Shown in pieces: positions 393 to 47,226 of a DNA stretch of 64,000 nucleotides. Origin of the DNA: a virus (taxonomy: Duplodnaviria > Caudoviricetes); the IMG/VR virus record IMGVR_UViG_3300009370_000001. The stretch is one strand, 5' to 3'. Below the pieces are notes generated by a model that saw only the letters and a list, made by a program, of their open reading frames with translations, was not told where the DNA came from and did no database searches. How positions within the stretch are numbered: position 1 is the first letter of the stretch; every line of letters starts with the position of its first letter. The position numbers and the translations under genes were made by a program.

Positions 393-3300
393 ATGGCTGG
401 CGGAGGAGGCGATTTTTCGGACATCACCGGCGGCCCGGCAACGGAAGACCAGAGCATGAGCGAGTGGGAAAGATGGCAACGCGACAACAGGAATGCGAGC
501 GCAATAGAAAAAAAGCGCGCCTTCTTACGGATCGAGGGAAATCTGGACGACGATGAAGTCGATCAGGCGCTAGCTGCCGTCGATGCACACATTCGCGCTG
601 CGACTCTTTATTATGATGAGGTCGAGAAGTGTGTACGGCAAATCAAATTAAATGAAGAAAAAGCTTGTGAATCTTACCAAAAACTTAAAGTTATCTGGGA
701 TAAGAATTTTACCGATACTGATAATCCACGCGGCCATGATGAAGCCTGGACGTCCGAGGCTGGCGCCTTCAATATTACGCTGGAGGCCGCGGACTCTTCG
801 GCGCCGTTCACCCGCCATGGCGAAGAGGTGTCGGCGGCAAATAGATTAGCTATTTCTCTAAAAAATAGTTCTGTTGATAGCCAAATGGCGGCACAATTTT
901 TTGGGGGTGTTTATTTTTATGCTCGTTCAATGGCTGAAAATTCTGCATTTTGTGCAGACTCTCATCGTTCTGGCACGCCGGGCAATATCGCGCGGGGAGA
1001 ACGCCTTAAGTGGCACCATTACGTCACCGGCGAGAGCGACGCTGGTGAGCTTGGACAGAGCGAATATGATTCTGGCACGCTCACCCTCAAAACCGGCCAA
1101 GTGATGCCGAATGCTCTCAAAGAGGAGTATCAAAGAACCGATGTCACCAACGAACAGCGCAAAGGCATTAAAACTCTCATCCAGCACGCTGGAACCTTCC
1201 ACGCACACGCGCATCAAGCTTTTTGGGCTCAACTGGGCGCCCAGGAGGTCGAACAAAGAGAGGGTTCGGCCTGGGAGCGCGCGGTACAGCTTTCTTATTA
1301 CTTTACCTCGGGCGCCGGCGCGCGCGATCAGGTTGCCGCATTTGCCGATGATAGCTATGCCCAAGGACTCTCCCAGGCGCAGGCAACAGATCCCAGCGTC
1401 ACAGTCCCGCGCGGCGCACGATCATGGAAGAATGGCACACTTGCCGAAATGGCTAGTCAGGCAAGGGCTGCCTTGCGGAGGCTCATCGCGGCCGATATTA
1501 ATAGAGCAGCCAACGAAGAACTTCTTAACGATCTTGGGGGACTCCTGGGTCAGTTCTCTCTCTTCGCCAGGAACATAGCCGCGGGCTATGGGTGTTGGTC
1601 GGAGCAATCCCGGATCTTTGCCAATGCTCAGCAAGATTATAACGAGGCGATAGTAGCGCTAGCCGGCGGCGGTCAGGGGCCCCTTGCATATGCCGCGGCT
1701 CTGGTCCGCGGCGACGGATGGGACGGTCTTAATGATTCTCTGATCGACATGCTTGACGATAGCCATAGTGCCTCTACCTATGCTGCGATGGATCGCCAGC
1801 GAACTATTTTTAATGAGCAATGCTTTTTACTTTCTTATATTTCCGATATTGCTGATCACAAAAAACGTCGGGACAGCACTGCGCCGCGTTCTGGCTCCAT
1901 AGCAGCTAGCTGCGGTACCGGCGCGACTCCCGGCAAGGGAGTGCCTTATTTAGGGGAAGCCGGCAACTCTACTTTATTAGTTGATGGAGACTCTTATGGG
2001 TTTCTTAACAAGCTCACGCAGACTGGTGATCAAAAAGTTTTCTTTAATATGAAAAGTGATGTCCTTAATCACTTGCAGCCAATGATTCGGCTGTTTAAAG
2101 TAGCCTACGACAGTGATAACGAAACCACAGAACAAGAGTTTATTTTTAAGTCTTGGGGCGCGCCAAATCTTCAAGAAGTGTTGAAAAGAAAAGAACAACG
2201 CGGCTTTGGAGTGGGAGTAAAAAGCTTTGATTTTTCGTATGAAGGAAATAATCCTTTTGCTGTTAAAAAGAGCATTAAAGCCACTTTAAAGATCTTTGCT
2301 AATAGTATGTCTGAATTATTTGATGTGCACAATGGGATTAGTTATAGTGATTTAGCTCTCAAGACCACACAACCTACTCAGAGCAACAATGATTGCGCGA
2401 CTATTGCTGCTGGAGGTTTTGTCACCGCCATAGGGCAACATTCGGCGCTTGAAGAAGCCAATTTAGATAAATTAAACTTTAGGCTTAAGGCCGTTGTTGG
2501 CTGGGCGCGCCCCTCTGGTCAAGGTCCTTGGAGCACGATGAGCAGTCTCACGAGCGATCCAAATCGTAATAGTAACAACTTACGAGATGCCATTTATCAA
2601 TCTTACACTACTTTAAACTTAACGCCTACCGTTCATAATTTTGAATTTGATGATATGGGGCGTGTCATCTTTACTATTGAATATCTGGCATTTGTAGACG
2701 ATTATTACGATAGCCCGGCATTTAATATTTTTGCCGGCACTGACACAACCATCGAACAAATTATAAGAAATTTACAAATAGAGTTCTATAATCGCAATTG
2801 CAAATCCGAAGAAGCAAGCAACGTTAAAAAAACTCTCGCTGACAGGGCTGCAGCAGAAAAAAGCCAAGCGCTTACTTCTTTAATAGAAAACCTAAAAGGC
2901 AAAAAACGAATTTATTATATAAAACTTCCGTGGTCCGAAGTGGCAGAGTTTAACTCGGCCGGCCCTTTCTACAATTGGAATGCGGGGGAGGGTGCTGGAG
3001 AAGCTTTTCAAATACAAAGCGATAGTGAAAATGATGCTAGCCTAGCGGCCGAAATGGCGACTGCCTTTGACTCTTATAATTTTGCAGATGCGGGAGTCGG
3101 CTCTGAGAGTGAAGAGGCGAATGTTTTTAAGGCATCCCTTCTTGTAGAGAATCCAGAAACAATAAACCTTTCCTTCTTCTATATAAGCGATTTGATCGAT
3201 ACGATTTTAGAATCACTCGAAAAGGAGCTTTCAACGTTGGGCGACCGTCTTTCGGATCGACTGTCAACGGAAGGCTCAGATATTACGCGTTGTCAAGTTA

Positions 3301-4367
3301 CAATGGCAGTTGATAAATATACTCGGGCTTATAAGAATTTTAAAAAATTAAGAATTTTATTAGGCCCGGTGGAGTTTGTGAATCAAGGCGATCAAGGTAC
3401 ACGAGTCTTAGGAGGCGCGAGTGCGATGGTAAACTTCGGTGACATACCTATTTCAGTTCGGTATTTTCTGGAATATCTTGCGGACCAGATGTTGAAAAAA
3501 GAGAGAAGCACGTATACTCTTACGAGTTTTCTTAATGACTTGTTTAACAAGCTCATAAGAGACTTCTTAAACGATGAAACTTGTTTTGATTGGAGTATTA
3601 AACAAAGAGTACGGGTTAATCAAGCAGTTATAACGAGTTATCCGCAACAAGCCGATGGGCTTGATGAAATCGCTGCTAGTATGAAAGCCGCGGGTAAAGC
3701 TCGGATCTCCTTATCGACCTTATCGATGCCCATTTTAAACATCTCCGGCCGCGGCCCAATCTCTTCGCCCGACGTTGCGGACGAAGTCAACTATTTTGTT
3801 TATTTTGCAGGACGTACTGCACCCGCAGAGCGCATGCAAGGAAACAAGCGAGATGATGAAAATGCCGGAATCTTTCACTATCAACTTGGCCGCGGCGAAG
3901 GACTCATTAAAAACATTAAACTCAGTAAAACTGATTCGCGTGGTTTGGCAGAGGTTAGATTCGAACAAGATGGCTATGACGGCTTAAAACAATTGCGTGT
4001 CGTGTACGATACCGAAATCGATTCTTATTCTAATGTTAAAACCTATCCAGGGACTTACATATATGTGGATCCGCGCGGCTTTGCGCCCGATATGAGAGCG
4101 GGAGGAACTGCTACAGAATTTGGCTTGACAGACTTAGGTATTGGCGGTTATTATATGATAGTAAAATCTTCGCATACTTTTGCAGCAGGTCAAGCTGAAT
4201 CTAAAATTTATGCTAAGTGGGTCAATGCCATAGAAAACTCCGCAATTCAAGCTGAAAGAGCTACAGCTACAGGGAACCCGGATGCAGCCACAACAGGGCC
4301 GGCACAATGTCACAGCGCCTTAGCCAATCGAAATGACAATGCCGAGGAAGAGGTGGTGAATCCTTAA
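393..4367 (+). CDS. Large virion protein, probable baseplate hub/tail-associated
   Basis: 1324 aa. C-terminal YPGTYIYVDP...LGIGGYYMIVKSSHTF...SKIYAKW resembles the end of gpD/gp27-type hub proteins; follows the LysM gene. Confidence 0.45.
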   Translation: MAGGGGDFSDITGGPATEDQSMSEWERWQRDNRNASAIEKKRAFLRIEGNLDDDEVDQALAAVDAHIRAATLYYDEVEKCVRQIKLNEEKACESYQKLKVIWDKNFTDTDNPRGHDEAWTSEAGAFNITLEAADSSAPFTRHGEEVSAANRLAISLKNSSVDSQMAAQFFGGVYFYARSMAENSAFCADSHRSGTPGNIARGERLKWHHYVTGESDAGELGQSEYDSGTLTLKTGQVMPNALKEEYQRTDVTNEQRKGIKTLIQHAGTFHAHAHQAFWAQLGAQEVEQREGSAWERAVQLSYYFTSGAGARDQVAAFADDSYAQGLSQAQATDPSVTVPRGARSWKNGTLAEMASQARAALRRLIAADINRAANEELLNDLGGLLGQFSLFARNIAAGYGCWSEQSRIFANAQQDYNEAIVALAGGGQGPLAYAAALVRGDGWDGLNDSLIDMLDDSHSASTYAAMDRQRTIFNEQCFLLSYISDIADHKKRRDSTAPRSGSIAASCGTGATPGKGVPYLGEAGNSTLLVDGDSYGFLNKLTQTGDQKVFFNMKSDVLNHLQPMIRLFKVAYDSDNETTEQEFIFKSWGAPNLQEVLKRKEQRGFGVGVKSFDFSYEGNNPFAVKKSIKATLKIFANSMSELFDVHNGISYSDLALKTTQPTQSNNDCATIAAGGFVTAIGQHSALEEANLDKLNFRLKAVVGWARPSGQGPWSTMSSLTSDPNRNSNNLRDAIYQSYTTLNLTPTVHNFEFDDMGRVIFTIEYLAFVDDYYDSPAFNIFAGTDTTIEQIIRNLQIEFYNRNCKSEEASNVKKTLADRAAAEKSQALTSLIENLKGKKRIYYIKLPWSEVAEFNSAGPFYNWNAGEGAGEAFQIQSDSENDASLAAEMATAFDSYNFADAGVGSESEEANVFKASLLVENPETINLSFFYISDLIDTILESLEKELSTLGDRLSDRLSTEGSDITRCQVTMAVDKYTRAYKNFKKLRILLGPVEFVNQGDQGTRVLGGASAMVNFGDIPISVRYFLEYLADQMLKKERSTYTLTSFLNDLFNKLIRDFLNDETCFDWSIKQRVRVNQAVITSYPQQADGLDEIAASMKAAGKARISLSTLSMPILNISGRGPISSPDVADEVNYFVYFAGRTAPAERMQGNKRDDENAGIFHYQLGRGEGLIKNIKLSKTDSRGLAEVRFEQDGYDGLKQLRVVYDTEIDSYSNVKTYPGTYIYVDPRGFAPDMRAGGTATEFGLTDLGIGGYYMIVKSSHTFAAGQAESKIYAKWVNAIENSAIQAERATATGNPDAATTGPAQCHSALANRNDNAEEEVVNP

Positions 4368-18857: not shown

Positions 18858-19756
18858 GCGATGGGCGGCACACACATCTAGCCGGTATTATACCGCTAGC
18901 TAACCTGACTACTGATTTTGATCTCCCCACTCCGGAGTGCCTCACGCCTGTGGATCCTGGCTTCACCGCCATCCAAAAAGCAGTGTTTGAATGTGCTGTC
19001 GCAGGATGTCAGACCATATGGATTGTGGCCAACGACGATTTGGCACCTTTAGTAAAGAAAGTGGTTGGAGAGTGGACATATGATCCCGTTTATTACTCGC
19101 GCTCTCACAGCATCTTTCCCAGCGAGCATCGTAAAGAGATCCCTATATATTATGTGCCTATCCACCCCAAAGATCGCGACCGCCGCGATTCTTATGGATG
19201 GTCAGTGCTGCATGGCATTAATTCTGCGTGGAGGGTAGCTAATATTATTTCGCGGTGGGTCGTTCCCGATAAGTATTTTGTCACATTTCCAATGAGTGCG
19301 TATAATGTCTATGCCCTCAGAAATTTCCGGGCAAAAATTTCAGATTTTGAAAATAACTTTTTTTTAACTCACAATGGCAAAACTGTAAAGGATAATGAAC
19401 ACTTGGCGTTTACTATGTTTAGTGAAGACTTCATTCACTGCCGTCGCCATGTGAACAAAACTACGACAAGAGAATACTTAAATCCTGGGCCCGATGAAAA
19501 ATACCCCCAAGAAAAACTACCACTCGCAAAAAGGTGGTCTGCCAGAGGGTTTGACTTCGCTACTATTTTTGAGAAGATTAATGAAAAGAATTCATACAAA
19601 ATGGACATAGATTGGTATTATGACATTTCCAAATGGTCAGAATATCAAGCCTTTATGGGTTCAGAAAATTTCATACAAAAACCATCAAATAGCTTGACAA
19701 AGGCGCATACACATGTTAAATTACCATATAGAGAGGGAGAAATAGATGACGATTAA
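18854..19756 (+). CDS. Sugar-nucleotidyltransferase (NTP_transferase)-like protein
   Basis: LAGIIPLA...ECLTPV...AIQKAVFECAVAGCQTIWIV matches the N-terminal fold pattern; GxGTR signature absent. Confidence 0.55.
   Translation: MSDGRHTHLAGIIPLANLTTDFDLPTPECLTPVDPGFTAIQKAVFECAVAGCQTIWIVANDDLAPLVKKVVGEWTYDPVYYSRSHSIFPSEHRKEIPIYYVPIHPKDRDRRDSYGWSVLHGINSAWRVANIISRWVVPDKYFVTFPMSAYNVYALRNFRAKISDFENNFFLTHNGKTVKDNEHLAFTMFSEDFIHCRRHVNKTTTREYLNPGPDEKYPQEKLPLAKRWSARGFDFATIFEKINEKNSYKMDIDWYYDISKWSEYQAFMGSENFIQKPSNSLTKAHTHVKLPYREGEIDDD
19694..19722 (+). promoter_or_regulatory. Sigma70-type promoter for dnaE
   Basis: TTGACA-17-TAAATT with TG extension, inside the upstream gene's 3' end. Confidence 0.6.
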
Positions 19757-22700
19757 ATTCGTGGGGCTTCACGCCCACAGTGTGGCAGGATCTATCTTTG
19801 ATGCAATCGGATACCCCGATGCTCATATGGATTTTGCTTTTGAGAACGGGAGCGATGCGTTAGCGCTCACGGACCATGGAAACATGAACGGACTAGCGGG
19901 ACAGGTTTTGCATGCCAAGAAGATGCAGGCAGAGGGCAAAGACTTTAAACCGATTTTCGGCGTCGAGGCTTACTTCATTCCTTCCATTGAAGAATGGCGA
20001 GAAGAATATGAAGCAGCCATGGCCGACAAGAAACGTGCTCGAAGCGCAAAGAAAGACGCAGCTTCGGGTGCAACAGTAGAAGACGAGACCGATAGCAAGA
20101 AGGTGCAAGGCTTATTGCGCCGACGTCGCCATCTCATTCTATTGGCTCAAAATCAAACCGGACTTAATAATCTCTTTAAGCTGGTTTCTGAAAGCTATAA
20201 GAGCGAGAACTTTTATCGGTATCCGCGCATGGACTACGCACTATTAGAGAAGTATGGTGAAGGCGTTATTGCTGCATCGGCTTGTCTCGGTGGAGTGTAT
20301 GCCGGAAACTACTGGGAGAATGGTATTTATGATGAAGAGGGCAATCGCACCGGCGTAAACCGCGAAGGAGCGCTCGATGATATGCGCGAGACTACCCGTC
20401 GTATGCAAGCAGTCTTTGGAGATCGCTGGTATGGCGAGCTACAGTGGAACAACATTAAAGAACAGCATGAACTTAACCAGCTCATTATTCAGATTTCGGA
20501 AGAGTTTGATATGAAGCTGATTTCCACAGCCGACAGCCACTACCCGAACCAGACCGCATGGAAGGATAGGGAGTTATACAAGCGCCTAGGCTGGCTTGGA
20601 AAAGGAACTCCATCCTGGGGTGAGGGTGCGGAATTCCCCGAGGGTGTAGAAGAGATTGGATACGAACTGTATCCCAAGAATGGCGATCAAATGTGGGAGA
20701 GCTATCAGAACTATTGCAAGAGCAGCGGTTTTGAATATGATGATGCATTAGTGATGAACAGCATCACAGAAACCTACCACATCGCCCACGACCGCATTGA
20801 AAGCTTCTTTCCAGATACAACCGTGCGGCTTCCTGACTTTGTGGTGCCGGCTGGTACAACAGCCACCCAGGCTCTGGTCAACTATGCGCTTGAAGGCTTG
20901 CGTCTTAAGGGATTACAAAACAACAAAGAATATTTAGCGCGCCTGCGCCGCGAACTTGATGTCATTGATGACCGAGGCTTCTCCAAATATTTCTTGACGA
21001 TGAAAGCTATCGCTGATGAGGCCACCAAGCAGATGCTTGCTGGTCCTGGGCGAGGGTCAGCCGCTGGTTCGCTGGTTGCCTACGCACTCGGAATTACACA
21101 GGTCGATCCGATCAAGTATAACCTTCTGTTCTCGCGCTTTCTGCGTTCAGATGCAACCGACTATCCTGATATCGATTATGATGTATCGGACAGTATGGAA
21201 TTGAAAGAGAAGTTAGTTGAGATGTGGGGTGAAGATTGTGTAGCCCCGATCTCCAACTGGAACACTTTGCAGTTGAGATCTCTTATCAAAGACATCTCAA
21301 AGCTTTATGGTATCCCCTTTACAGAGGTTAACAATGTCACTAGTGTGATGATGAGAGAGGCCACACCCGAGGCCAAGAAGAAGCATGGCATCAAAGCCGG
21401 CATCTATGCGCCCACCTGGGAAGAGGTGATGGAGTTTTCCGTCACGCTCCAAGCCTTTCTCCAGAAGTATCCGGAGGTCAAAGCTCGTGTTGAAGGTCTT
21501 GTGGGACAAGTACGCTCCTGCTCTCGACATGCAGGTGGTGTTGTCATCGCTGAAGATCTCGACCGTCACATGCCATTGATTAACTCTGGTGGTGTCCGTC
21601 AATCTCCCTGGAGTGAGGGGCAGAACGTGCGGCATCTAGAACCGATGGGATTCATTAAATTTGATTTGCTCGGACTCTCGACATTAAAGATGATGGAAGG
21701 GTGCATCGAACATATCTTGCGGCGCCATCATGGTGTTGAGGAGCCGACTTTCGATGATATTTTAGACTATTATAATAAGACCATCCATCCCGATGTGATT
21801 GACTTTGATGATCTTGAGGTATATAAGAATATCTTTCACCAAGGCAAGTGGGCAGGCGTCTTTCAGTTCACCGAGCAAGGAGCGCAGAGTTTCTGTACGA
21901 GAGTAAAGCCAACCAACATCATTGATGTTTCGGCTATTACTTCTATCTTTCGTCCAGGTCCGCTGTCGGCTGGTGTTGACGTTGATTACGTTGAAGCCAA
22001 GAACCACCCACAGTATGTATCGTATCTCTCTGATGAGGCTCAAGAAATTACTGAAGAAACTTTTGGCTTTCTTATCTTTCAAGAACAGATTGCGTTGCTA
22101 GCTCATAAATTAGGTGGACTTACTCTTGACGAAGGCAATATGCTGCGCAAGGTGCTGACCAAGAAGGGCACCGGCAAGAACAGTGTCAAGGCTAAGCTGC
22201 ACACCAAGTTTATCAAGGGATGCGCGGCCAAGAAAATTCACCGAGACAAGGCTGAAGATCTCTGGAACAAGTTTGAGTATTTCTCTGGCTATGGTTTCAA
22301 CAAGTCGCACGCAGTTAGTTATAGCATTATCTCTTATCAGTGTGCGTGGCTGTGGAATTATTATCCTTCTGAGTGGATGGCTGCGTTCTTGGACAAAGAG
22401 CCTGAGACCAGAAAAGAAAAGGCAATCAACATCGCCAAGAAATATGGTTTTAAGATTGCACCACTGGATATCAACAAGTCCGGCACAGTATGGGAGATCA
22501 GTGACGATGGTAAGACTCTTATTCAGCCTCTGACTTCTATCAAGGGTCTAGGCATGGCCGCCATCGAACAGATTCTTGACCATCGACCCTTTAAGAACGC
22601 GGAAGATCTCTTGTTCCGAGAAGGTATATCATACAGCAAATTCAACAAGAAAGCTTTGGATGCGCTAGCACGAGGTGGAGCTTTAGATGATATTATCGAT

Positions 22701-23186
22701 GATAGATTCACAGGACGCAAGCATTTTTGGTCTGCATGTGTGGTAGAGCGCCCCAAGAACCTGAAGAAGCTGCTAGAGAACATCGAAACCTATCGACCCG
22801 AAGGCGATTTCAGCGAAGAGGAGATCATTCAGTTTAAAACAGAGCTTACGGGAGTGTTCCCCATTAACCTTGTGATTAAAGCGGAGACAGTCGAGAAGCT
22901 CCAAGAAAAGTTTATCCCACCAATCTCCGAGTTTGATACAGCTTTAGAAGTGTGTTGGTTTATTCCACGCAAAATCATTCCTAAGAAAACAAAAAATGGA
23001 AAACTTTATTGGATTGTGGAAACAATTGATTCGAATAATGAACTCACAAAGATCCGGTGTTGGGGCGTAAAACCCGAGAAAGATACTATCTTTTTGAACA
23101 GACCGTATATGGCCAAATTGCGCTATGATGAACAATGGGGATTTTCTACTTACGCAATTGGGAAGACTTTCAGATTGTTGGGCTAG
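19746..23186 (+). CDS. dnaE: DNA polymerase III alpha subunit with PHP domain
   Basis: GLHAHS, ALTDHG, GVEAY, TADSHY (PHP); GPGRGSAAGS, YPDIDYD, IKFDLLGL, YGFNKSHA; C-terminal OB fold. Confidence 0.95.
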   Translation: MTIKFVGLHAHSVAGSIFDAIGYPDAHMDFAFENGSDALALTDHGNMNGLAGQVLHAKKMQAEGKDFKPIFGVEAYFIPSIEEWREEYEAAMADKKRARSAKKDAASGATVEDETDSKKVQGLLRRRRHLILLAQNQTGLNNLFKLVSESYKSENFYRYPRMDYALLEKYGEGVIAASACLGGVYAGNYWENGIYDEEGNRTGVNREGALDDMRETTRRMQAVFGDRWYGELQWNNIKEQHELNQLIIQISEEFDMKLISTADSHYPNQTAWKDRELYKRLGWLGKGTPSWGEGAEFPEGVEEIGYELYPKNGDQMWESYQNYCKSSGFEYDDALVMNSITETYHIAHDRIESFFPDTTVRLPDFVVPAGTTATQALVNYALEGLRLKGLQNNKEYLARLRRELDVIDDRGFSKYFLTMKAIADEATKQMLAGPGRGSAAGSLVAYALGITQVDPIKYNLLFSRFLRSDATDYPDIDYDVSDSMELKEKLVEMWGEDCVAPISNWNTLQLRSLIKDISKLYGIPFTEVNNVTSVMMREATPEAKKKHGIKAGIYAPTWEEVMEFSVTLQAFLQKYPEVKARVEGLVGQVRSCSRHAGGVVIAEDLDRHMPLINSGGVRQSPWSEGQNVRHLEPMGFIKFDLLGLSTLKMMEGCIEHILRRHHGVEEPTFDDILDYYNKTIHPDVIDFDDLEVYKNIFHQGKWAGVFQFTEQGAQSFCTRVKPTNIIDVSAITSIFRPGPLSAGVDVDYVEAKNHPQYVSYLSDEAQEITEETFGFLIFQEQIALLAHKLGGLTLDEGNMLRKVLTKKGTGKNSVKAKLHTKFIKGCAAKKIHRDKAEDLWNKFEYFSGYGFNKSHAVSYSIISYQCAWLWNYYPSEWMAAFLDKEPETRKEKAINIAKKYGFKIAPLDINKSGTVWEISDDGKTLIQPLTSIKGLGMAAIEQILDHRPFKNAEDLLFREGISYSKFNKKALDALARGGALDDIIDDRFTGRKHFWSACVVERPKNLKKLLENIETYRPEGDFSEEEIIQFKTELTGVFPINLVIKAETVEKLQEKFIPPISEFDTALEVCWFIPRKIIPKKTKNGKLYWIVETIDSNNELTKIRCWGVKPEKDTIFLNRPYMAKLRYDEQWGFSTYAIGKTFRLLG

Positions 23187-35255: not shown

Positions 35256-38200
35256 ATGAGTTACGCAACCGATAAATGGTTCAACTATCTACGCAACGAC
35301 GTATTAACAGAGGGCGTGCGGGACATCGGACTTCCCGAAGTGGTCATCGACCGCATCGAAAGCACCCTCCCAGACGTATCCGAGAAAACTAAAACTTGGA
35401 TGGGACACCAGTGGAAGGACACGTCCGCCAACAACTTAAATCACTTCACAGGAATGGTACGCTTAACAAATCGAGAAGGCGTTGACCCCGAGGGGCGCGC
35501 CGTATCGGACTTCATGGTTCGTCTCCTTAACATCCTTACGGACTATTCTAGTAAGGGTGAACCAGGGTGGAAAGAACTTTCCCCTGAAGAGGCCGAGGAG
35601 AACGCCAAGAAGGTACGTTATGTGCTGACCAACCTAGCAGGGCCCGAAGGGATCGTTGCTAAAAAGCCTTTCGGCGCATGGAAGCGAGGCTTTGATAAAG
35701 CACTTAAAAATCTCAGCAAGTTAGGGGTTCATAGCGAAATAGTAGGAAAGGTTAAAACGCAATTGTATGCGCTCTTTACTCAAACCTTTGAGATGTTCTA
35801 TCGTCAATATAGCGACGTGTTCCAACTGCTTAATCTGGATCCCACCAACTTTGAATACATCAAGAGTGATACTATAGACGAAGCCGGTCGTACTGCTATA
35901 GAATACCTTGAACAGCGCGAAGATCCCGACCAAATCCTTCACACGTTTGACGACGGCTCTTATTGGTATGATCTTCAAACCTCTAACTGCTCTATAGAAG
36001 CGGAGCGCATGGCTCACTGTGGAGACGCAGACTATAATAATACGATGATTTCTCTTCGTAAGAAAGGGAAAAGACAAAAGCATTCTAAGTCTTATGTGAC
36101 CGTAGAATACGGAAACCATAGCGACACTATCTATCAGATTAAAGGACGTGCGAACTCTGTGCCCCCTGAAGAAACATGGCCCCACATCGCATGGCTGGTG
36201 GACAATCTCGGCGTGGACAGCATCGCAGAAAGCGGCGAGCATTCCAGCGAATACTTTGACGAATTGCTGGATTATCTGCGCAGCCACACTAATGCCACAA
36301 TCGACGGCGGCTTTGAAGCCCGTCAGGAAGCAATGCAAGAAGAATTAGATGAGATTCTCCGCGCTCATGACGGCAATGAAGGTTATGACGTCTGGGCCGA
36401 GGTCTACGATGAAGACATCGGAGAGGGCCAAGTTTATTATTCGGGCGGCGGTAGCATGTCCCTCCAGATTAATCTCGGTTGGCCCGCGATGAAAAGCGTC
36501 GAGGGCGAATACGTGCCGATGGATCTGGAAGGAAACGAACTTTCAGATATTGAGCGCATCCCCACCGATAATAATTGGACCGCCGCCAATGACTTTCTTG
36601 CTGAAGCCGGCATTAAAGACTGGGGCTATGAATTGCCCGGAGAAGAAGAAGAATTTGAATACCGGGTAGAAATGTTAGAGGGGCACGATCCTGCTTGGGA
36701 GATGGGTGATGATGACCCCCCGCGCACCGCACACATCACCATTGAAGTGCAGACGCGCCAGGAAACTTCTGACGACGCTAGCGCTTTCGATTACTTTGCT
36801 AGCGAAATGGAAGGCCATGCTGAAGAGATTAGCGCGACCCAACAGAAGCTACGCACTAAAATGGTGGAAGAAGGTTTCGCCGTCAAGAATGCTTTTGATG
36901 CAGGACGCACCGAGATCGGAGAGCTTGAAGGAGAGCTACAGAACTGGCAGGTTTATAATGAAGGCGGGGAAATTGAATTCTGGTTTAACCCAGAGGTTAA
37001 TGATGAGGGTGGGCGCTATACAATTATCCCCTCCGGTGTCGAGTTTCCCGTTGAGGTATTCTACTACACCGACCCGAGCTTCCGCGACGTGCGAAAGCAA
37101 TTTCAATATGTATGGCCGCATGCCCGAGGATCGCACGCAGGAATGGGGAAAGTAAACTTTAGCGGCGATAAGCTCAACCAAATGATGGCGCAACAGCTTG
37201 GTGCCCAAGATGCTATGGGACAACGTGCGCAACAAAAAGGACAAACTCAATTAGATTTTGGCCCTGAATACGCATGGCAACCGACACCGTTAGAACTTGC
37301 TCGCGACATGGAGTTTATAGTTATTCCGCAGGTTAATTATTTCAGCGACAGCCAGGGCATTAGCGACGTTACCATTTCCTATCGCCTCACCCTTCGCGTC
37401 GATCCTAACGACAACGCAGAAGAGATCGGCAAAACAATAAACATGGTCAAGTATCTGAACAAAAACCCCGAGCAGGTTCAAGAGGCAGCCCACGAAATTA
37501 TCCAGTTTTCGGTTGAGCCTACCCTTGAAAAGGCCGAGACGATGAAGAAAGATATGTTGGATGGCTCGCTAGCCACGACTCTGATAAGAGCCATTAATAG
37601 GCGATATGGGCAACAGGCCCACGATGGCAACAACGAAGCAGAGAAGGTGACACTGCTGGCAAGCTGGGCCCAGAAAAACTGGGGCGACATGACCGCCGTC
37701 GAGAGAACCGCTGTCATTAATACCTATCTTTATCCTGCTAGCCAAGGAGCTTTGAACCTTCACATTCTGGACCTTACAGATATGGACAATCTTTCTCATA
37801 TCGATCAGCTTGGCATGCCTGCCGGTTGGGAAAGCGACGTAAGGGAAGAGTTGCGATATCGCGGCGCGGGCCAAATGGTGCGCAACAACTATAAGTGGGC
37901 CGGAGGCGCCATGGCACAAGATGTGGAAATCAACGAGCCCGAAGATCTGTCGGAAGAGTTGGCCCCTTGGATTGAAACCCCGGAGAGGTATGAAGAGAAT
38001 CAACTTGGTCGAGTAGAAAAGTTACTAGAGAAATTGCGAGATCCTACCCACGATTTGCGCATCTATAATGTACGCGTCGGTTGCAACTTGATTGACCGCG
38101 TTGGTGGAACAGATGCCGAAATTGCCGCTGAAATCCGGGGGATTGATGGGGTCACGACAGTGCGACCTATTGCCGACAGCAAGCGTGAGATCACACCAAC

Positions 38201-38885
38201 AGAAACGTATGTGTTGTTCGACATTAAGTTTGAACTGGTGGGAAGCCAGAGTCGCGTTGAATATAGAGAAGCGATTTTGATTCCGCAGATGCGCCTTATT
38301 GATGGTATAAAAATTATTAACTGGAGCGCTATTCACAAGACCAACATTCAAGGAACGGTGCGCACGGTACGAGAGGCAGCACAGAACCTCTCCGAATATG
38401 GATTTGGCGCTAATACAGGCGCTAGTTTTGGAGGCGTAGCTAAAAATTTGGGTAGCGTTCGCTTCAACCCTTCGGCGGCGCGCCCCACTCCGACGCCTAC
38501 CTTGGATGTTATTGTGCAGGATTGGGCGGAAGGAGGAGTACAGGCATATGACTTTCCTACCAACACTAATGATATGCGTTATCATACTATGATGCCTGTA
38601 TCAGAACTCTGGCATCATCGTTCCGGCTATAGTCGCCACCCCAAGGATATTTTTGATGTGAAATATGGTCATTTTAATGCGGTATATCAGCGCTTAAAGG
38701 ATCAATTAGAAGATCCCAAAGCCTACCACGAGTTTATAAAAGATGGGGCCCATGGACCAGTTTATGTGGCTATTGGAAAGAATGGGAGAGTAAAGATAAC
38801 TGGAAATGAGGATCTAGTGTGGTTCGCTAAAAAAGCGGGTCTTGAAGAGCTACCAGTTTTTCTTAGTTATCAACGACAAGTGTAG
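35256..38885 (+). CDS. Large multidomain probable virion protein (PcfJ-like and ParB-like segments)
   Basis: 1209 aa; EAERMAHCG...ISLRK...TVEY...IYQIKGRAN (PcfJ-like); C-terminal GPVYVAIGKNGRVKITGNED...AKKAGLEELPV (ParB-like). Confidence 0.45.
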   Translation: MSYATDKWFNYLRNDVLTEGVRDIGLPEVVIDRIESTLPDVSEKTKTWMGHQWKDTSANNLNHFTGMVRLTNREGVDPEGRAVSDFMVRLLNILTDYSSKGEPGWKELSPEEAEENAKKVRYVLTNLAGPEGIVAKKPFGAWKRGFDKALKNLSKLGVHSEIVGKVKTQLYALFTQTFEMFYRQYSDVFQLLNLDPTNFEYIKSDTIDEAGRTAIEYLEQREDPDQILHTFDDGSYWYDLQTSNCSIEAERMAHCGDADYNNTMISLRKKGKRQKHSKSYVTVEYGNHSDTIYQIKGRANSVPPEETWPHIAWLVDNLGVDSIAESGEHSSEYFDELLDYLRSHTNATIDGGFEARQEAMQEELDEILRAHDGNEGYDVWAEVYDEDIGEGQVYYSGGGSMSLQINLGWPAMKSVEGEYVPMDLEGNELSDIERIPTDNNWTAANDFLAEAGIKDWGYELPGEEEEFEYRVEMLEGHDPAWEMGDDDPPRTAHITIEVQTRQETSDDASAFDYFASEMEGHAEEISATQQKLRTKMVEEGFAVKNAFDAGRTEIGELEGELQNWQVYNEGGEIEFWFNPEVNDEGGRYTIIPSGVEFPVEVFYYTDPSFRDVRKQFQYVWPHARGSHAGMGKVNFSGDKLNQMMAQQLGAQDAMGQRAQQKGQTQLDFGPEYAWQPTPLELARDMEFIVIPQVNYFSDSQGISDVTISYRLTLRVDPNDNAEEIGKTINMVKYLNKNPEQVQEAAHEIIQFSVEPTLEKAETMKKDMLDGSLATTLIRAINRRYGQQAHDGNNEAEKVTLLASWAQKNWGDMTAVERTAVINTYLYPASQGALNLHILDLTDMDNLSHIDQLGMPAGWESDVREELRYRGAGQMVRNNYKWAGGAMAQDVEINEPEDLSEELAPWIETPERYEENQLGRVEKLLEKLRDPTHDLRIYNVRVGCNLIDRVGGTDAEIAAEIRGIDGVTTVRPIADSKREITPTETYVLFDIKFELVGSQSRVEYREAILIPQMRLIDGIKIINWSAIHKTNIQGTVRTVREAAQNLSEYGFGANTGASFGGVAKNLGSVRFNPSAARPTPTPTLDVIVQDWAEGGVQAYDFPTNTNDMRYHTMMPVSELWHHRSGYSRHPKDIFDVKYGHFNAVYQRLKDQLEDPKAYHEFIKDGAHGPVYVAIGKNGRVKITGNEDLVWFAKKAGLEELPVFLSYQRQV

Positions 38886-45111: not shown

Positions 45112-45151
45112 CAACTTTGTGGTTGACACCGGTATTAGAAGATGCTATATT
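45108..45151 (+). promoter_or_regulatory. Repeated early promoter element
   Basis: TTGACA-9-TTGACA-17-TATATT; directly upstream of tRNA-Leu; TGA ends the 44842 gene. Confidence 0.85.
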
Positions 45152-45159
45152 AAGAACAT

Positions 45160-45247
45160 GGCCGAGTGGTGGAATAGGTAGACACACCGGACTTAAAATC
45201 CGTTGATCATTATGATCGTGAGGGTTCAAGTCCCTCCTCGGCTACCA
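45160..45247 (+). tRNA. trnL: tRNA-Leu(UAA), encoded CCA
   Basis: Acceptor GGCCGAG/CTCGGCT, anticodon loop CT-TAA-AA, long variable arm, GAGGG-TTCAAGT-CCCTC T-arm, ACCA. Confidence 0.92.
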
Positions 45248-45248
45248 C

Positions 45249-45303
45249 CTTACATCTTCTTGACAACTTTTGGCTTGACCACACAAACTGGGCATGCTAT
45301 ATT
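45249..45303 (+). promoter_or_regulatory. Repeated early promoter element
   Basis: CTTACA-5-TTGACA-9-TTGACC-17-TATATT. Confidence 0.85.
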
Positions 45304-45744
45304 ATGAACACTGACCACATTAACATCTTCACCGACGAAGAAATCAACAAGGAGCTACGGATGGGCACCCGCTCACACATTTATATTGAAACCGAACCAG
45401 GAAGATTTCTGGGAACTTACTGTCAGTTTGACGGCTATCCTTCCCATATGTTTCCACAACTTGAAAAGCGCAGCCATGACGAAGTATATAGTATTATCGT
45501 CAGAGGACAAACACGCGGTGGCTTGGTAGGCATTGCTGCTACGCCGTCTTCTCCTATTGAATATCAAGATGGAATGGGGGAAGCATCTTTTCTTTTTAAT
45601 CCGACAGACTATCTCGAAAGCACCTGCGTTAACTACGTTTATGTAAAGCGACTGGATGGAACGGTACTATGGCGGGAAACCCGCAACGCTGAACCTGGAA
45701 TCCCGATGCCCTGGTATAACACAGCACCCGAGGAGGAAGAATAA
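45304..45744 (+). CDS. Conserved phage hypothetical protein
   Basis: MGTRSHI...YCQFDGYP motif; true start may be internal (MGTRS). Confidence 0.6.
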   Translation: MNTDHINIFTDEEINKELRMGTRSHIYIETEPGRFLGTYCQFDGYPSHMFPQLEKRSHDEVYSIIVRGQTRGGLVGIAATPSSPIEYQDGMGEASFLFNPTDYLESTCVNYVYVKRLDGTVLWRETRNAEPGIPMPWYNTAPEEEE

Positions 45745-45745
45745 A

Positions 45746-45967
45746 ATGATGTTTGAAGCAGGCGAAAAAGTTATTGTAATGGCAGGCAGTGTTCATTCTC
45801 CGTCCTATCTACAGGGCGAGAGCGGAATGATCCTTGAAGTATCGGGATCATCTGATTATGTACCTGAACATTATACTATTAAGTTTGAGAAAGAGACTCA
45901 TATTCTTTATGGGTCCGAACTACGGAGAGAAGAAAGTGAACAAGACGTGACGTATGAACTAAAATAA
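45746..45967 (+). CDS. Small SH3/KOW-like protein
   Basis: FEAGEKVIV...GMILEV...YTIKF. Confidence 0.5.
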   Translation: MMFEAGEKVIVMAGSVHSPSYLQGESGMILEVSGSSDYVPEHYTIKFEKETHILYGSELRREESEQDVTYELK

Positions 45968-45973
45968 GTGGTT

Positions 45974-46128
45974 GGCCCCTGGAGTAATACTTAAGGACAT
46001 TCGGGTTCAATGTCTACAATGAACCTTGTACCCATCTGGTGAGGTGAAACCTGCGAGGGTAATGCAGGAGTGGAAAGTAGGCTAACGAGTGGAAGACGCG
46101 GTGAAGACAGCGTTCCTCTCCAGGGGCC
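45974..46128 (+). ncRNA. Unassigned ~155-nt multi-stem structured RNA
   Basis: Perfect 11-bp closing stem GGCCCCTGGAG/CTCCAGGGGCC, four internal helices, complementary loops GGTTC/GAACC; intergenic, among tRNAs. Confidence 0.7.
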
Positions 46129-46144
46129 TTTACATTGATTTGAC

Positions 46145-46173
46145 TTGACAAAGAGAAGAAAATGAGATATATT
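46145..46173 (+). promoter_or_regulatory. Sigma70-type promoter
   Basis: TTGACA-17-TATATT. Confidence 0.7.
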
Positions 46174-46179
46174 ATACAT

Positions 46180-46386
46180 ATGAAAAAGGGTGACGTAGTT
46201 AAGTTTGTTTCTCCCCCAGGACTTCACCACTTGGATTCGGTGATGAACTGGAAACAGCAGAGTCCTGGTTTGGTCGTGGGGAGCAAAGACACTTCTCTCA
46301 AGAAGCGGTCTTATGAAGTGCTGTGGAAGAACGGCGAAAGAACTTTTGAATGGGAATCATATTTGGAGATTATTAGTAAAGCATGA
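46180..46386 (+). CDS. Small SH3/KOW-like protein
   Basis: MKKGDVVKF...GLVV...YEVLW...ESYLEII. Confidence 0.55.
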   Translation: MKKGDVVKFVSPPGLHHLDSVMNWKQQSPGLVVGSKDTSLKKRSYEVLWKNGERTFEWESYLEIISKA

Positions 46387-46562
46387 TTTATACAGTTATT
46401 TATACAGATTACAAAAACGATTTGAAGTCCGAGGTAACGGATGGTCCGATGGACCGACCCGAAGCCTGGAAGGAAATGAAACGAGAATACGGCACAGTGC
46501 TGGCAATGGTGCCTGGGAGTCATCCCGTGTATACCAGCGGCTCAATGGAGCGAAAAGATTAG
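46383..46562 (+). CDS. 59-aa hypothetical protein (not in track)
   Basis: MIYTVIYTDY...GSHPVYTSGSMERKD; ATGA overlap. Confidence 0.55.
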   Translation: MIYTVIYTDYKNDLKSEVTDGPMDRPEAWKEMKREYGTVLAMVPGSHPVYTSGSMERKD

Positions 46563-46622
46563 GAGACTGCTTACAGAGCATAAACAGTAAAGCTGGACGC
46601 TCAAAACATTAACCCCTATCCT

Positions 46623-46698
46623 GCGCCGGTAGCTCAGGGGTTAGAGCGTTGTTCTTATAAAGCAAATGTCGGTGGTTCAAGTCCACCCCGGCGTACCA
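46623..46698 (+). tRNA. trnI: tRNA-Ile(UAU), encoded CCA
   Basis: Acceptor GCGCCGG/CCGGCGT, D-arm GCTC/GAGC, anticodon stem TTGTT/AGCAA with loop CT-TAT-AA, T-arm GGTGG-TTCAAGT-CCACC. Confidence 0.9.
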
Positions 46699-46705
46699 TT
46701 TTTTT

Positions 46706-47139
46706 ATGACGAGGATATATACTAATATGAGCCATCACTATGGAGAATACTGGTCAAGCTGGAGCCACCAGCCTGCCACACCTAAAGAGCCTGAACTGCT
46801 TGAAGAGATTAAAACATTTCTTTTGACTCTCCATGAGAGTGATAAAGCTGCGGAGTTACTCCAAAAAATAGAGGCGGAAGCCGCCAAAGCGAATAAGCCT
46901 AAAACTGATTTTTAATGTTACCAGAGATTGACTGGCTTGAACACCAAATAGCGCAACTGCGAGAGCGGTGCGATCAGCTTGAGAAAGAAAACTTTGAGCT
47001 TAAGCGATGCATTGGCCGAGCTATCACAAACCTGGAACGAGATAATCAGCAGACCCGAGAATACATTGAGAAAGAAGAAACGAAAATCGTAGCGTTCGCC
47101 CCCAACTTCAAGAAGCCGAAGTGGGAAACGCAAGATTAA
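46706..47139 (+). other. Two small hypothetical genes (46706-46915, 46915-47139)
   Basis: Helical/coiled-coil ORFs between tRNAs. Confidence 0.5.
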
Positions 47140-47150
47140 CCTTTCAATTT

Positions 47151-47226
47151 GGGTCCATAGCTCAATAGGTAGAGCATCGGACTTTTAATCCGCAGGTCGT
47201 GGGTTCGATTCCCACTGGACCCACCA
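47151..47226 (+). tRNA. trnK: tRNA-Lys(UUU), encoded CCA
   Basis: GGGTCCA/TGGACCC acceptor, loop CT-TTT-AA, GTGGG-TTCGATT-CCCAC T-arm. Confidence 0.95.

What the first reader, a model, noticed from the sequence alone, without database searches (positions are those of the whole stretch)
45974..46128. Unassigned 155-nt structured RNA with adjacent kissing hairpins, embedded in the tRNA cluster
Seen: 11-bp closing stem; hairpin GACATT/AATGTC (loop CGGGTTC) directly followed by TACAA/TTGTA (loop TGAACC), with loops complementary (GGTTC/GAACC); CCTGC/GCAGG (loop GAGGGTAAT, whose GGGTA can pair with TACCC at 46029); GGAA..CGC/GCG-TTCC; no credible ORF. Inference: a real ncRNA. Adjacent kissing hairpins next to the terminal helix recall the SRP Alu domain, and CAGG-agt-GGAA-agt-AG loosely echoes the SRP helix-8 motif CAGG-NNN-GGAA-NNN-AGCA, but it is too short and imperfect to call. 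It could be a decoy RNA, a ribozyme or a new class.
Basis: partly seen in the sequence, partly recalled or inferred. Interest (0 to 1): 0.8.

Follow-up and report, generated by a model that had tools for sequence, protein, structure and literature searches.

The report
New structured RNA in phage tRNA island
A roughly 150-base RNA gene with a strongly conserved pseudoknotted fold sits among the tRNA genes of a group of uncultured marine phages; it matches no known RNA family and is not SRP-like, and its function is still unknown.

Summary
The element at 45974-46128 (+) is a real structured RNA gene. I collected 24 distinct homologues in six lineages of uncultured marine phages. All lie inside a tRNA island, on the tRNA strand.

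Across lineages the terminal helix P1 (12-16 bp) changes sequence completely yet stays paired. Of 38 modelled pairs, 21 show compensatory changes, and 98.9% of cells pair against 30-48% in slid controls.

The two complementary "kissing loops" are the strands of a conserved helix, P2. The P2 loop forms a 6-bp pseudoknot with GUAGGC about 60 nt downstream.

The SRP echo fails: CAGG lies in a covarying stem and GGAA varies.

No Rfam family matches, including SRP, RNase P, tRNA, Y RNA and 6S. The RNA is better conserved (93% nt identity) than its flanking genes (74-84%).

The most likely function is a discrete, stable, trans-acting phage RNA that recognises a conserved partner through its invariant loops. 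In context it resembles T4 rnaC/rnaD, ROOL and GOLLD. Function and expression are not shown. A cis-acting leader or processing element and a ribozyme remain open.

Other first-stage readers flagged this same stretch of the same genome. The scan has no record of it on other DNA.

The parts
45974..46128 (+). The whole RNA (155 nt), from the first to the last base of terminal helix P1
   Evidence: CM R1 scores 175.9 bits here, and this is the only real copy in the window. There are 24 distinct homologues. MFE z-score is -3.3.
45974..45985 (+). P1, 5' strand (GGCCCCUGGAG plus U)
   Evidence: It pairs with 46117-46128. All 12 pairs show compensatory changes across six lineages. The 12th pair is U.U in the window but A-U, U-A or G-C in relatives.
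45986..46002 (+). J1/2, an A-rich linker variable in sequence and length
Evidence: Alignment A3 shows substitutions and 1-4 nt indels here.
46003..46026 (+). P2 hairpin: GGGUUCA, a 10-nt loop AUGUCUACAA, then UGAACCU
   Evidence: 98.2% of cells pair. L004 has GGAUUCA/UGAAUCC, and L054 and L203 have GGGUUC/GAACUC. UUCAAUG and CUA are invariant.
46012..46017 (+). Pseudoknot 5' strand GUCUAC, inside the P2 loop
   Evidence: It pairs with GUAGGC at 46077-46082 in 99.3% of cells. The last pair is C-G in 15 sequences, U.G in 6 and U-A in 2 (L003/L004). The second pair is U.G, or C-G in L042 and L203.
46029..46046 (+). P3a, a small hairpin UACC / GGUG with a 10-nt loop (tentative)
   Evidence: The A-U pair becomes G.U in L009 and L051 and G-C in L049. 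Divergent lineages have CCC/GGG or longer stems at the same place, read by eye.
46050..46068 (+). P3 hairpin CCUGCG / UGCAGG, with a loop of variable size
   Evidence: Four of 6 pairs have compensatory changes, for example CCUGUUG/CAACAGG in L003.
46069..46090 (+). Conserved single-stranded run AGUGGAAA-GUAGGC-UAACGAGU, which contains the pseudoknot 3' strand at 46077-46082
   Evidence: UAGGCUA and the adjacent CGA (window 46084-46086) are invariant in all 24 sequences.
46091..46116 (+). P5 hairpin: GGA, internal loop AGA opposite one base, CGC, decaloop GGUGAAGACA, GCG, UCC. It abuts the 3' strand of P1.
   Evidence: The outer 3 pairs all covary: GGA/UCC, GAG/CUU in L076, UGC/GCA in L203. AGACGCGG and ACAGCG are invariant.
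46117..46128 (+). P1, 3' strand
   Evidence: See the P1 5' strand. UUUACA follows it here. U7 follows it in L036 and U5CAUUUGUUU in L003.
45937..45965 (+). Weak promoter-like site TGAACA-17-TAAAAT inside the end of the upstream gene. Its -10 hexamer ends 8 nt before P1 (context, uncertain).
   Evidence: Scores 9 of 12. In relatives it is only partly kept and is confounded with coding. L036 and L076 have strong promoters just upstream of their copies.
46383..46562 (+). Conserved neighbour gene: a small protein starting M-I-Y-T-V-I-Y (59 aa here). It is possibly associated, and whether it belongs to the same system is unproven.
   Evidence: It lies 75-310 nt downstream of the RNA core, on the same strand, in five of six lineages. 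Distant homologues sit in tRNA islands without the RNA.

Best explanation
This is a gene for a discrete, folded, non-coding RNA of about 150 nt. It belongs to the tRNA island of an uncultured marine phage lineage.

Shown:
- It folds as a long terminal helix P1 that closes a multi-helix junction.
- The junction holds hairpin P2, whose loop forms a 6-bp pseudoknot with a conserved strand about 60 nt downstream.
- It also holds variable hairpins P3a and P3, and a 3' hairpin P5 with an invariant internal loop and decaloop placed directly next to P1.

Inferred:
- The RNA is made on the tRNA strand. In some lineages it has its own sigma-70-type promoter and a P1-plus-U-tract end. In others it is part of a tRNA-island transcript from which it would have to be cut out.
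- P1 clamps both ends and stabilises the molecule.
- It acts in trans. About 50 invariant loop and junction nucleotides would build a specific tertiary surface that binds a conserved partner. The most plausible partner is a component of the host or phage tRNA, translation or transcription machinery, or the small protein encoded next to it.

The partner and the effect are unknown.
For: Structure:
- 98.9% of 889 cells pair, 21 of 38 pairs show double changes, and 0 of 500 shuffles reach that.
- Slid controls give 30-48% pairing.
- The P1 sequences of the six lineages are unrelated but all complementary.

Strand: the G.U pairs in P2, P3 and the pseudoknot work only on the + strand.

Selection: the RNA averages 92.6% nt identity. 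The upstream gene's tabulated mean is 80.6% (about 84% by my arithmetic once the truncated L057 locus is left out) and the downstream 260 nt average 74%.

Discrete gene:
- In L036, TTGACA-17-TAATAT puts the predicted start at the first bases of P1, and U7 follows P1.
- L076 has its own triple-box promoter about 25 nt upstream.

Trans rather than cis: the element directly downstream differs between lineages. It is a promoter plus mini-gene in the window type, a promoter in L203, and the Y-T-x-I gene without a promoter in L036, L054 and L076. The RNA core is unchanged in all of them.

Context:
- The RNA always lies among tRNA-Leu(UAA), Arg(UCU), Ile(UAU), Lys(UUU) or Asn, on the same strand.
- There is one copy per viral record.

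Precedent for structured RNAs in phage tRNA islands:
- T4 rnaC and rnaD are annotated as small stable RNAs at the end of the T4 tRNA cluster.
- ROOL and GOLLD are described as often lying near tRNA islands (bioRxiv 10.1101/2024.12.08.627333).
Against: - No transcript ends have been seen.
- The only RNA-library support is a few read-length contigs from one oligo-dT marine run. Those could be DNA carry-over, and one of them reads through into the next gene.
- In L054 and L076 no terminator follows P1, and the next start codon is 26-27 nt away. That arrangement would also suit a 5' leader.
- In the window type there is no convincing promoter of its own.
- No partner has been identified. No complementary target was found in the window.
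Confidence: 0.55

Rival explanations
1. It is a cis-acting element of the tRNA-island transcript. It could be a 5' leader (protein- or ligand-binding attenuator) for the small Y-T-x-I gene and the tRNAs behind it. It could also be a processing or termination signal in which P1 stacked on P5 forms an RNase III-like or RNase P-like site and a transcript end.
For: - In L036, L054 and L076 the RNA sits 26-28 nt before the start codon of the conserved small gene, with no promoter between. In L036 and L076 a promoter lies just upstream.
- In L036 and L003 a U-run follows P1.
- The topology is that of some riboswitch aptamers such as SAM-I: a closing helix, a loop-to-junction pseudoknot and a 3' hairpin next to P1. 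This comparison is from my own knowledge.
Against: - In the window type and in L203 a promoter, and in the window type a whole extra gene, separates the RNA from that gene. The RNA is fully conserved all the same.
- In L003 the gene is absent within 4.4 kb downstream (the extent of the held locus).
- A 12-16 bp GC-rich P1 would form with or without a ligand.
- A plain terminator or RNase site would not need about 50 invariant internal nucleotides and a pseudoknot.
- No riboswitch family matches.
Confidence: 0.2
2. It is a self-cleaving or otherwise catalytic RNA that helps cut the polycistronic tRNA-island transcript.
For: - Invariant junction nucleotides plus a pseudoknot inside a compact multi-helix fold are typical of ribozymes. 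That typicality is from my own knowledge.
- It sits in a transcript that must be processed.
Against: - No hit to any ribozyme family in Rfam at E <= 10.
- The hammerhead-like string CUGGUGA..GAAAC in the window is not conserved in other lineages.
- In L036 the predicted start and end already coincide with P1, so no cleavage would be needed.
Confidence: 0.08
3. It is a tRNA-related mimic or decoy. The 12-bp P1 stacked on P5 would imitate an acceptor/T-arm minihelix, or a loop would imitate an anticodon loop. The RNA would then be handled by RNase P or would soak up a host tRNA-directed defence nuclease. This is a special case of the trans-acting reading.
For: - Constant tRNA-island context, next to tRNAs for A-ending codons.
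- P1 is 12 bp in most members, and a hairpin abuts its 3' strand as the T arm does in tRNA.
- T4 rnaC in the same context carries a true T arm.
- A phage tRNA is known to neutralise the PARIS defence (PMC11464382, title and abstract seen).
Against: - ARAGORN and the Rfam tRNA model find nothing here.
- There is no T-loop sequence, no CCA and no discriminator pattern after P1.
- P1 length varies from 12 to 16 bp.
- The P2 loop's UCU is flanked by G and A, not U33, and is used in the pseudoknot.
Confidence: 0.1
4. It is an SRP-like RNA: an Alu-domain-like pair of kissing hairpins plus a helix-8-like motif.
For: The window sequence contains CAGG-AGU-GGAA-AGU-AG and two complementary 5-7 nt segments next to the terminal helix.
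Against: - The two hairpins are not conserved (64% and 78% paired).
- The complementary segments form helix P2.
- CAGG is paired in covarying stem P3, and GGAA varies.
- No SRP family scores at E <= 10.
Confidence: 0.02

Closest known systems
Phage T4 species 1 and species 2 RNAs (rnaC, rnaD)
   Same: Small RNAs (139 and 119 nt) encoded on the tRNA strand in a phage tRNA cluster and annotated as small stable RNAs. That their function is unknown is from my own knowledge. rnaC also has paired 5' and 3' ends around internal hairpins.
   Different: There is no sequence or structural similarity. rnaC carries a canonical T arm (CCGGG-UUCGAAU-CCCGG), which this RNA lacks. This RNA has a pseudoknot and a far longer terminal helix. 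The phage groups are unrelated: the DnaE-type polymerase here is at most 31.5% identical to any cultured phage.
ROOL and GOLLD RNAs
   Same: Elaborately structured, pseudoknotted RNAs of unknown function, encoded in phages and prophages, often near tRNA islands (bioRxiv 10.1101/2024.12.08.627333).
   Different: They are four to five times larger (GOLLD often exceeds 800 nt; the figure of about 600 nt for ROOL is from my own knowledge) and form multimeric cages. Neither Rfam model matches here. Nothing suggests that this RNA multimerises.
SAM-I-type riboswitch aptamers (topology only)
   Same: A closing helix, a second helix whose loop pseudoknots with a junction strand, a variable third helix, and a last hairpin next to the 3' strand of P1. 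This comparison is from my own knowledge.
   Different: There are no shared conserved nucleotides and no Rfam hit. P1 is much longer (12-16 bp). The element is not consistently a 5' UTR.
E. coli RNase P RNA, P16/L15 region
   Same: Three short strings recur: GGGUUCA, UGAACC and GUAGGCU.
   Different: The topology differs. In M1 RNA the strand containing AGGCU closes a helix around P16 (P15/P16 pairing from my own knowledge; one search gave sequence only), whereas here it pairs into the P2 loop. The RNase P model finds nothing in three phage records that carry this RNA (the relatives behind L076, L203 and L002) or in this region. I regard the resemblance as chance.

Membership tests
SRP RNA (4.5S / Bacteria_large_SRP, Alu domain) | Helix 8 with a GNRA tetraloop closed by a helix and flanked by the symmetric loop (CAGG opposite AGCA) | tested here: not met
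   CAGG is the 3' strand of covarying stem P3. The 'tetraloop' reads GGAA, GAAA, UAAA, GACA, AGAC or UGAA with no conserved closing pairs. No SRP model scores at E <= 10.
SRP RNA (4.5S / Bacteria_large_SRP, Alu domain) | Alu domain: two conserved hairpins whose loops pair | tested here: not met
   The proposed hairpins pair in 64% and 78% of cells, against 98% for the alternative helix P2.
tRNA / tRNA-like (including T4 rnaC type) | Cloverleaf, or at least a T arm with a T-loop sequence next to the acceptor helix | tested here: not met
   ARAGORN and RF00005 find only the three true tRNAs. The P5 loop is GGYGAAGACA, not a T loop. T4 rnaC does have one.
RNase P RNA (RF00010) | Match to the covariance model (conserved P4 core, CR-I and CR-V) | tested here: not met
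   No candidates at E <= 10 in three phage records that carry the RNA. There is no hit in the 301-nt region.
Any Rfam 15 family (4227 models, including Y RNA/YrlA, 6S, tmRNA, riboswitches, self-cleaving ribozymes, ROOL, GOLLD, IMES and Ocean motifs) | Score at or near the family's gathering threshold | tested here: not met
   The gathering-threshold scan of the window finds only three tRNAs. The permissive scan of 45900-46200 gives six chance-level hits at 13-19 bits to eukaryotic snoRNA and lncRNA, plastid and Bacillus sRNA models.
Riboswitch (generic) | Constant position in the 5' UTR of the regulated gene, with an expression platform | tested here: inconclusive
   This is met in L036, L054 and L076: a promoter lies upstream in L036 and L076, and the start codon is 26-28 nt downstream. 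It is not met in the window type, L203 or L003, where a promoter or another gene intervenes.
Phage tRNA-island structured RNAs of unknown function (a context-defined kind: T4 rnaC/rnaD, ROOL, GOLLD) | A conserved structured non-coding RNA encoded within or beside a phage tRNA gene cluster | tested here: met
   Covariation is shown. tRNA neighbours on the same strand occur in every lineage held with enough flank except L003/L004, where ARAGORN finds no tRNA in about 5 kb.
Phage tRNA-island structured RNAs of unknown function (a context-defined kind: T4 rnaC/rnaD, ROOL, GOLLD) | Accumulates as a stable RNA during infection | not testable with these tools
   Only contigs of one RNA library cover it. 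No raw reads of an infected culture exist for this uncultured phage.

The most novel reading that the evidence does not exclude
A new class of small phage RNA with a defined tertiary fold. Alone or together with the adjacent beta-beta-alpha-beta mini-protein, it would bind and reprogram a core host machine (tRNA processing or tRNA-directed defence nucleases, the ribosome, or RNA polymerase). It would then be a functional RNP or decoy unlike any described family.
Probability: 0.3. Interest if true: 0.85.

Novelty: new variant of a known kind. Interest (0 to 1): 0.62.

Why it matters
Phage tRNA islands repeatedly harbour structured RNAs whose roles remain unsolved. T4 species 1 and 2 RNAs have been known since the 1970s (from my own knowledge), and ROOL and GOLLD are more recent examples.

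This family is small enough (about 150 nt) for chemical probing, crystallography or cryo-EM. Covariation already defines its fold, and it has clearly separated invariant surfaces.

Its exact sequence occurs in at least 19 marine metagenome runs, listed under 13 studies together with one RNA run.

It therefore offers a compact, tractable entry point into what non-tRNA RNAs in phage tRNA islands do. If it proves to be a decoy or an RNP aimed at host tRNA or transcription machinery, it would add a new RNA-based tool to phage-host conflict.

Tried and rejected
1. Rfam at gathering and permissive thresholds: nothing relevant.

2. BLAST of the RNA and of 4.5 kb around it against 50,697 phage records: no match.

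3. No whole genome is held for the window.

4. Pattern scans of genome contigs:
- The first scan found nothing.
- The second gave 120 or more rows. The CM rejected all 77 of those I screened.
- So no bacterial or archaeal copy was found, but the patterns were narrow.

5. Pattern GAAGACGCGGNNAAGACAGCG in viral contigs gave three chance hits inside coding regions. Pattern GGNTTCAATGYCTAYNNYGAA gave only local chance matches beyond the known members.

6. Antisense targets of the invariant loops in the window: none above chance.

7. RNase P idea: rejected.

8. A hammerhead-like string (CUGGUGA...GAAAC) and an SRL-like string (AGUA...CGAGAGGA) seen by eye are not conserved across lineages.

9. The palindrome GCUAGC in J4/5 as a dimerisation site: broken (GCUAAC) in the window type.

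10. RNA-seq:
- One oligo-dT run holds read-length contigs over the RNA and over the junction between the RNA and the downstream region.
- Contigs cannot show ends, strand or level, and DNA carry-over is possible.
- Other RNA runs covered only the tRNA-Ile region or nothing.
- I draw no conclusion on expression or absence from these.

11. Using the neighbour protein as an anchor to find more divergent RNA members: four distant homologues lie in tRNA islands, but the CM finds no RNA there with filters off. A 250-nt gap in L233 appears to be coding.

12. Foldseek of the neighbour protein: only weak matches (E 0.1-0.7). They are not evidence of function.

Full report
**What is there**

The stretch 45974-46128 lies in a region of small + strand genes and three tRNA genes: Leu-UAA at 45160, Ile-UAU at 46623 and Lys-UUU at 47151.
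- It begins 7 nt after the stop codon of a 73-aa gene (45746-45967).
- It ends 17 nt before a strong TTGACA-17-TATATT promoter (46145-46173).
- It folds better than all 200 shuffles on either strand.
- Rfam gives only the three tRNAs at gathering thresholds. A permissive scan of 45900-46200 gives only chance-level hits.

The window is a fragment of an uncultured marine phage.
- It encodes DnaB, a DnaE-type polymerase, RecA, gp32, class II RNR, GroEL and ClpP.
- It has no DNA match among 50,697 phage records.
- Its polymerase is at most 31.5% identical to that of any cultured phage.

**Homologues**

I reached relatives in two ways: through the upstream 73-aa protein and through conserved-core DNA patterns. 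This gave 24 distinct sequences in six lineages:
- the window type, with 18 variants;
- L003/L004;
- L036;
- L054;
- L076;
- L202/L203, which is 185 nt long.

The covariance model R1, built from the first 22 sequences, recognises all of them at 71-182 bits. It finds one copy per viral record and one in the window.

Within the window type the RNA averages 92.6% nt identity. The upstream gene's tabulated mean is 80.6% (about 84% by my arithmetic without the truncated L057 locus) and the next 260 nt average 74%. The RNA is therefore an island of conservation.

The exact window sequence occurs in at least 19 marine DNA runs, listed under 13 studies together with one RNA run.

**Structure**

P1:
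- P1 has a different sequence in every lineage: GGCCCCUGGAG, GGCCCCCAAGAG, AUAAUCAACGGGGG, GGGCGACUGGCGCAG, GGGUCGGUGAGAGA and GUGGCUGAGUGU.
- It is always complementary to the 3' end.

Counts on alignment A5 for a model of P1, P2, pseudoknot, P3 and P5:
- 98.9% of 889 cells form standard pairs.
- 21 of 38 pairs have changes on both sides.
- No shuffle out of 500 reaches this.
- Sliding the partners by 1-3 columns drops pairing to 30-48%.

This alignment was fitted to the model for the nested helices. The pseudoknot was not part of the model, and it still pairs in 99.3% of cells. Its variation runs C-G, then U.G, then U-A, and U.G, then C-G.

Other points:
- A further small hairpin, P3a, has one A-U, then G.U, then G-C series.
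- The G.U pairs in P2, P3 and the pseudoknot fix the + strand as the functional one.
- Indels of 1, 2 and 3 nt, and the absence of a + strand ORF, exclude coding.

The closing stem, CCTGC/GCAGG and the GGAA..CGC/GCG..TTCC hairpin all hold.

The two "kissing" hairpins do not.
- GACATT lies in the variable linker J1/2.
- TACAA/TTGTA loses its fourth pair (alignment columns 49-58) in 19 of 24 sequences. Pairing is 64% and 78% of cells for the two hairpins.
- Their supposedly kissing loops are the two strands of P2 (GGGUUCA/UGAACCU). L004 shows GGAUUCA/UGAAUCC as a compensatory pair.
- The GGGTA/TACCC contact is confined to the window's subtype.

The SRP analogy fails on both of its defining features and on the Rfam models.

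**Context and transcription**

In every lineage held with enough flank except L003/L004, where ARAGORN finds no tRNA in about 5 kb, the RNA lies on the tRNA strand among tRNA-Leu(UAA), Arg(UCU), Ile(UAU), Lys(UUU) or Asn.

The transcription signals differ between lineages:
- L036 has a strong promoter whose predicted start falls on the first bases of P1, and U7 directly follows P1. This looks like a self-contained small RNA gene.
- L076 has its own triple-box promoter about 25 nt upstream.
- The window type has only a weak candidate, TGAACA-17-TAAAAT, inside the preceding gene. The RNA there is probably read from the promoter at 45275.

What follows P1 also differs:
- In L036, L054 and L076 it is the start codon of a small conserved gene (M-I/V-Y-T-A-I...), 26-28 nt away.
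- In L203 a promoter comes first.
- In the window type a whole promoter-plus-mini-gene cassette (46145-46386) is inserted before that gene (46383-46562).

The RNA core is unchanged through these rearrangements. That argues for a function that does not depend on being the 5' UTR of a particular gene.

**The neighbour protein**

The Y-T-x-I protein follows the RNA in five of six lineages.
- It has no Pfam or PHROG family.
- It is predicted with pLDDT 87 as a beta-beta-alpha-beta fold.
- Its best PDB matches are weak (E 0.1-0.7, TM about 0.55-0.6). They are the epsilon subunit of Bacillus RNA polymerase and T7 Gp2.
- A profile search finds 85 clusters of relatives.
- Four distant relatives that I looked up all sit directly upstream of a tRNA gene in marine phage tRNA islands. 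None has the RNA nearby.

The protein is therefore a tRNA-island gene in its own right. Partnership with the RNA is possible but unproven.

**Function**

The fold and the selection on it are shown. The function is inferred.

I favour a discrete, stable, trans-acting RNA at about 0.55. In this reading P1 clamps both ends, and the invariant P2 loop and pseudoknot, the GUAGGCUARCGAG strand and the P5 internal loop and decaloop form a recognition surface for a conserved partner.

Alternatives:
- A cis-acting leader or processing element is at about 0.2. The L036, L054 and L076 arrangement supports it. The window-type, L203 and L003 arrangements and the very long P1 weaken it.
- A ribozyme is at about 0.08.
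- A tRNA-machinery mimic or decoy is at about 0.1. It is a special case of the trans reading.
- An SRP-like RNA is at about 0.02.

Expression evidence is thin. One oligo-dT marine RNA run contains read-length contigs over the RNA and over its 3' junction.

**Comparison with known RNAs**

By context the closest known are T4 rnaC and rnaD and ROOL and GOLLD. All are structured RNAs in phage tRNA islands. ROOL and GOLLD are of unknown function; that rnaC and rnaD are too is from my own knowledge. There is no sequence or structural relationship to any of them.

I noticed a resemblance of three short strings to the P16/L15 region of E. coli RNase P RNA. I checked it against the real sequence and against the RNase P model, and rejected it because the topology differs.

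**Verdict**

This is a well-supported new family of small structured phage RNA.

Other first-stage readers noted the same stretch in overlapping windows of the same genome. The scan holds no look-alike from other genomes.

Noticed in passing
window 46383-46562 (+); also L036:5059-5319, L054:7255-7512 (-), L076:7618-7839 (-), L203:4595-4765: A small protein family starting M-I-Y-T-(A/V)-I-(Y/F), 57-87 aa, with no Pfam or PHROG match. AF2 gives a beta-beta-alpha-beta fold at pLDDT 87, with weak Foldseek likeness to RNA polymerase epsilon (YkzG) and T7 Gp2. Its gene sits directly upstream of a tRNA gene in marine phage tRNA islands, with or without the RNA. A profile search finds 85 clusters at 50% identity.
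   Followed up: partly
window 46145-46182, and the same place in L001, L003, L009 and others: The promoter TTGACA-17-TATATT ends exactly 6 nt before the ATG of the mini-gene (46180). This spacing is kept in all relatives, which suggests a leaderless mRNA. The ORF caller's upstream ATG at 46162 lies inside the promoter spacer.
   Followed up: no
window 45123-45160: A strong promoter (TTGACA-17-TATATT with TG) ends 8 nt before the first base of tRNA-Leu(UAA). The primary transcript would therefore start at or next to the mature tRNA 5' end, leaving little or no leader for RNase P.
   Followed up: no
window 46129-46386 compared with L054 and L076: Compared with L054 and L076, the window type has a complete promoter plus SH3-like mini-gene cassette (M-K-K-G-D-V-V...) inserted between the RNA and the Y-T-x-I gene. 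This is a concrete example of cassette gain in this hyperplastic region.
   Followed up: partly
window 45160-47226 and loci L009, L036, L044, L054, L076, L233: The phage tRNA set is dominated by readers of A-ending codons: Leu-UAA, Ile-UAU, Lys-UUU and Arg-UCU. Its order is conserved across divergent lineages. tRNA-Ile with a UAU anticodon is unusual for bacteria (that rarity rests on an earlier scan note, e1-5378472, not tested here).
   Followed up: no
L003:673-821 compared with L004:673-821: Two near-identical contigs differ inside P2. L004 has a perfect GGAUUCA/UGAAUCC, while L003 has two mismatches (GGUUUCA/UGUAUCC). This lineage also lacks the Y-T-x-I gene nearby. The differences could be a decaying copy or assembly variants.
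   Followed up: no
window 46003-46026 and 46077-46083 compared with E. coli rnpB (L204:417-793, - strand): The strings GGGUUCA, UGAACC and GUAGGCU also occur in the P16/L15 region of E. coli RNase P RNA, but in a different pairing topology. I judge this to be coincidence.
   Followed up: yes
window 1-43000: The phage fragment encodes a GroEL-type chaperonin, two ClpP-like proteases, an IMPDH/GMP-reductase domain protein, RecA, gp32, Dam, class II RNR and a DnaE-type polymerase. Three ORFs of more than 1,100 aa were scanned with PHROGs: 393-4367 and 35256-38885 have no match, while the third (19746-23186) is the DnaE-type polymerase.
   Followed up: no
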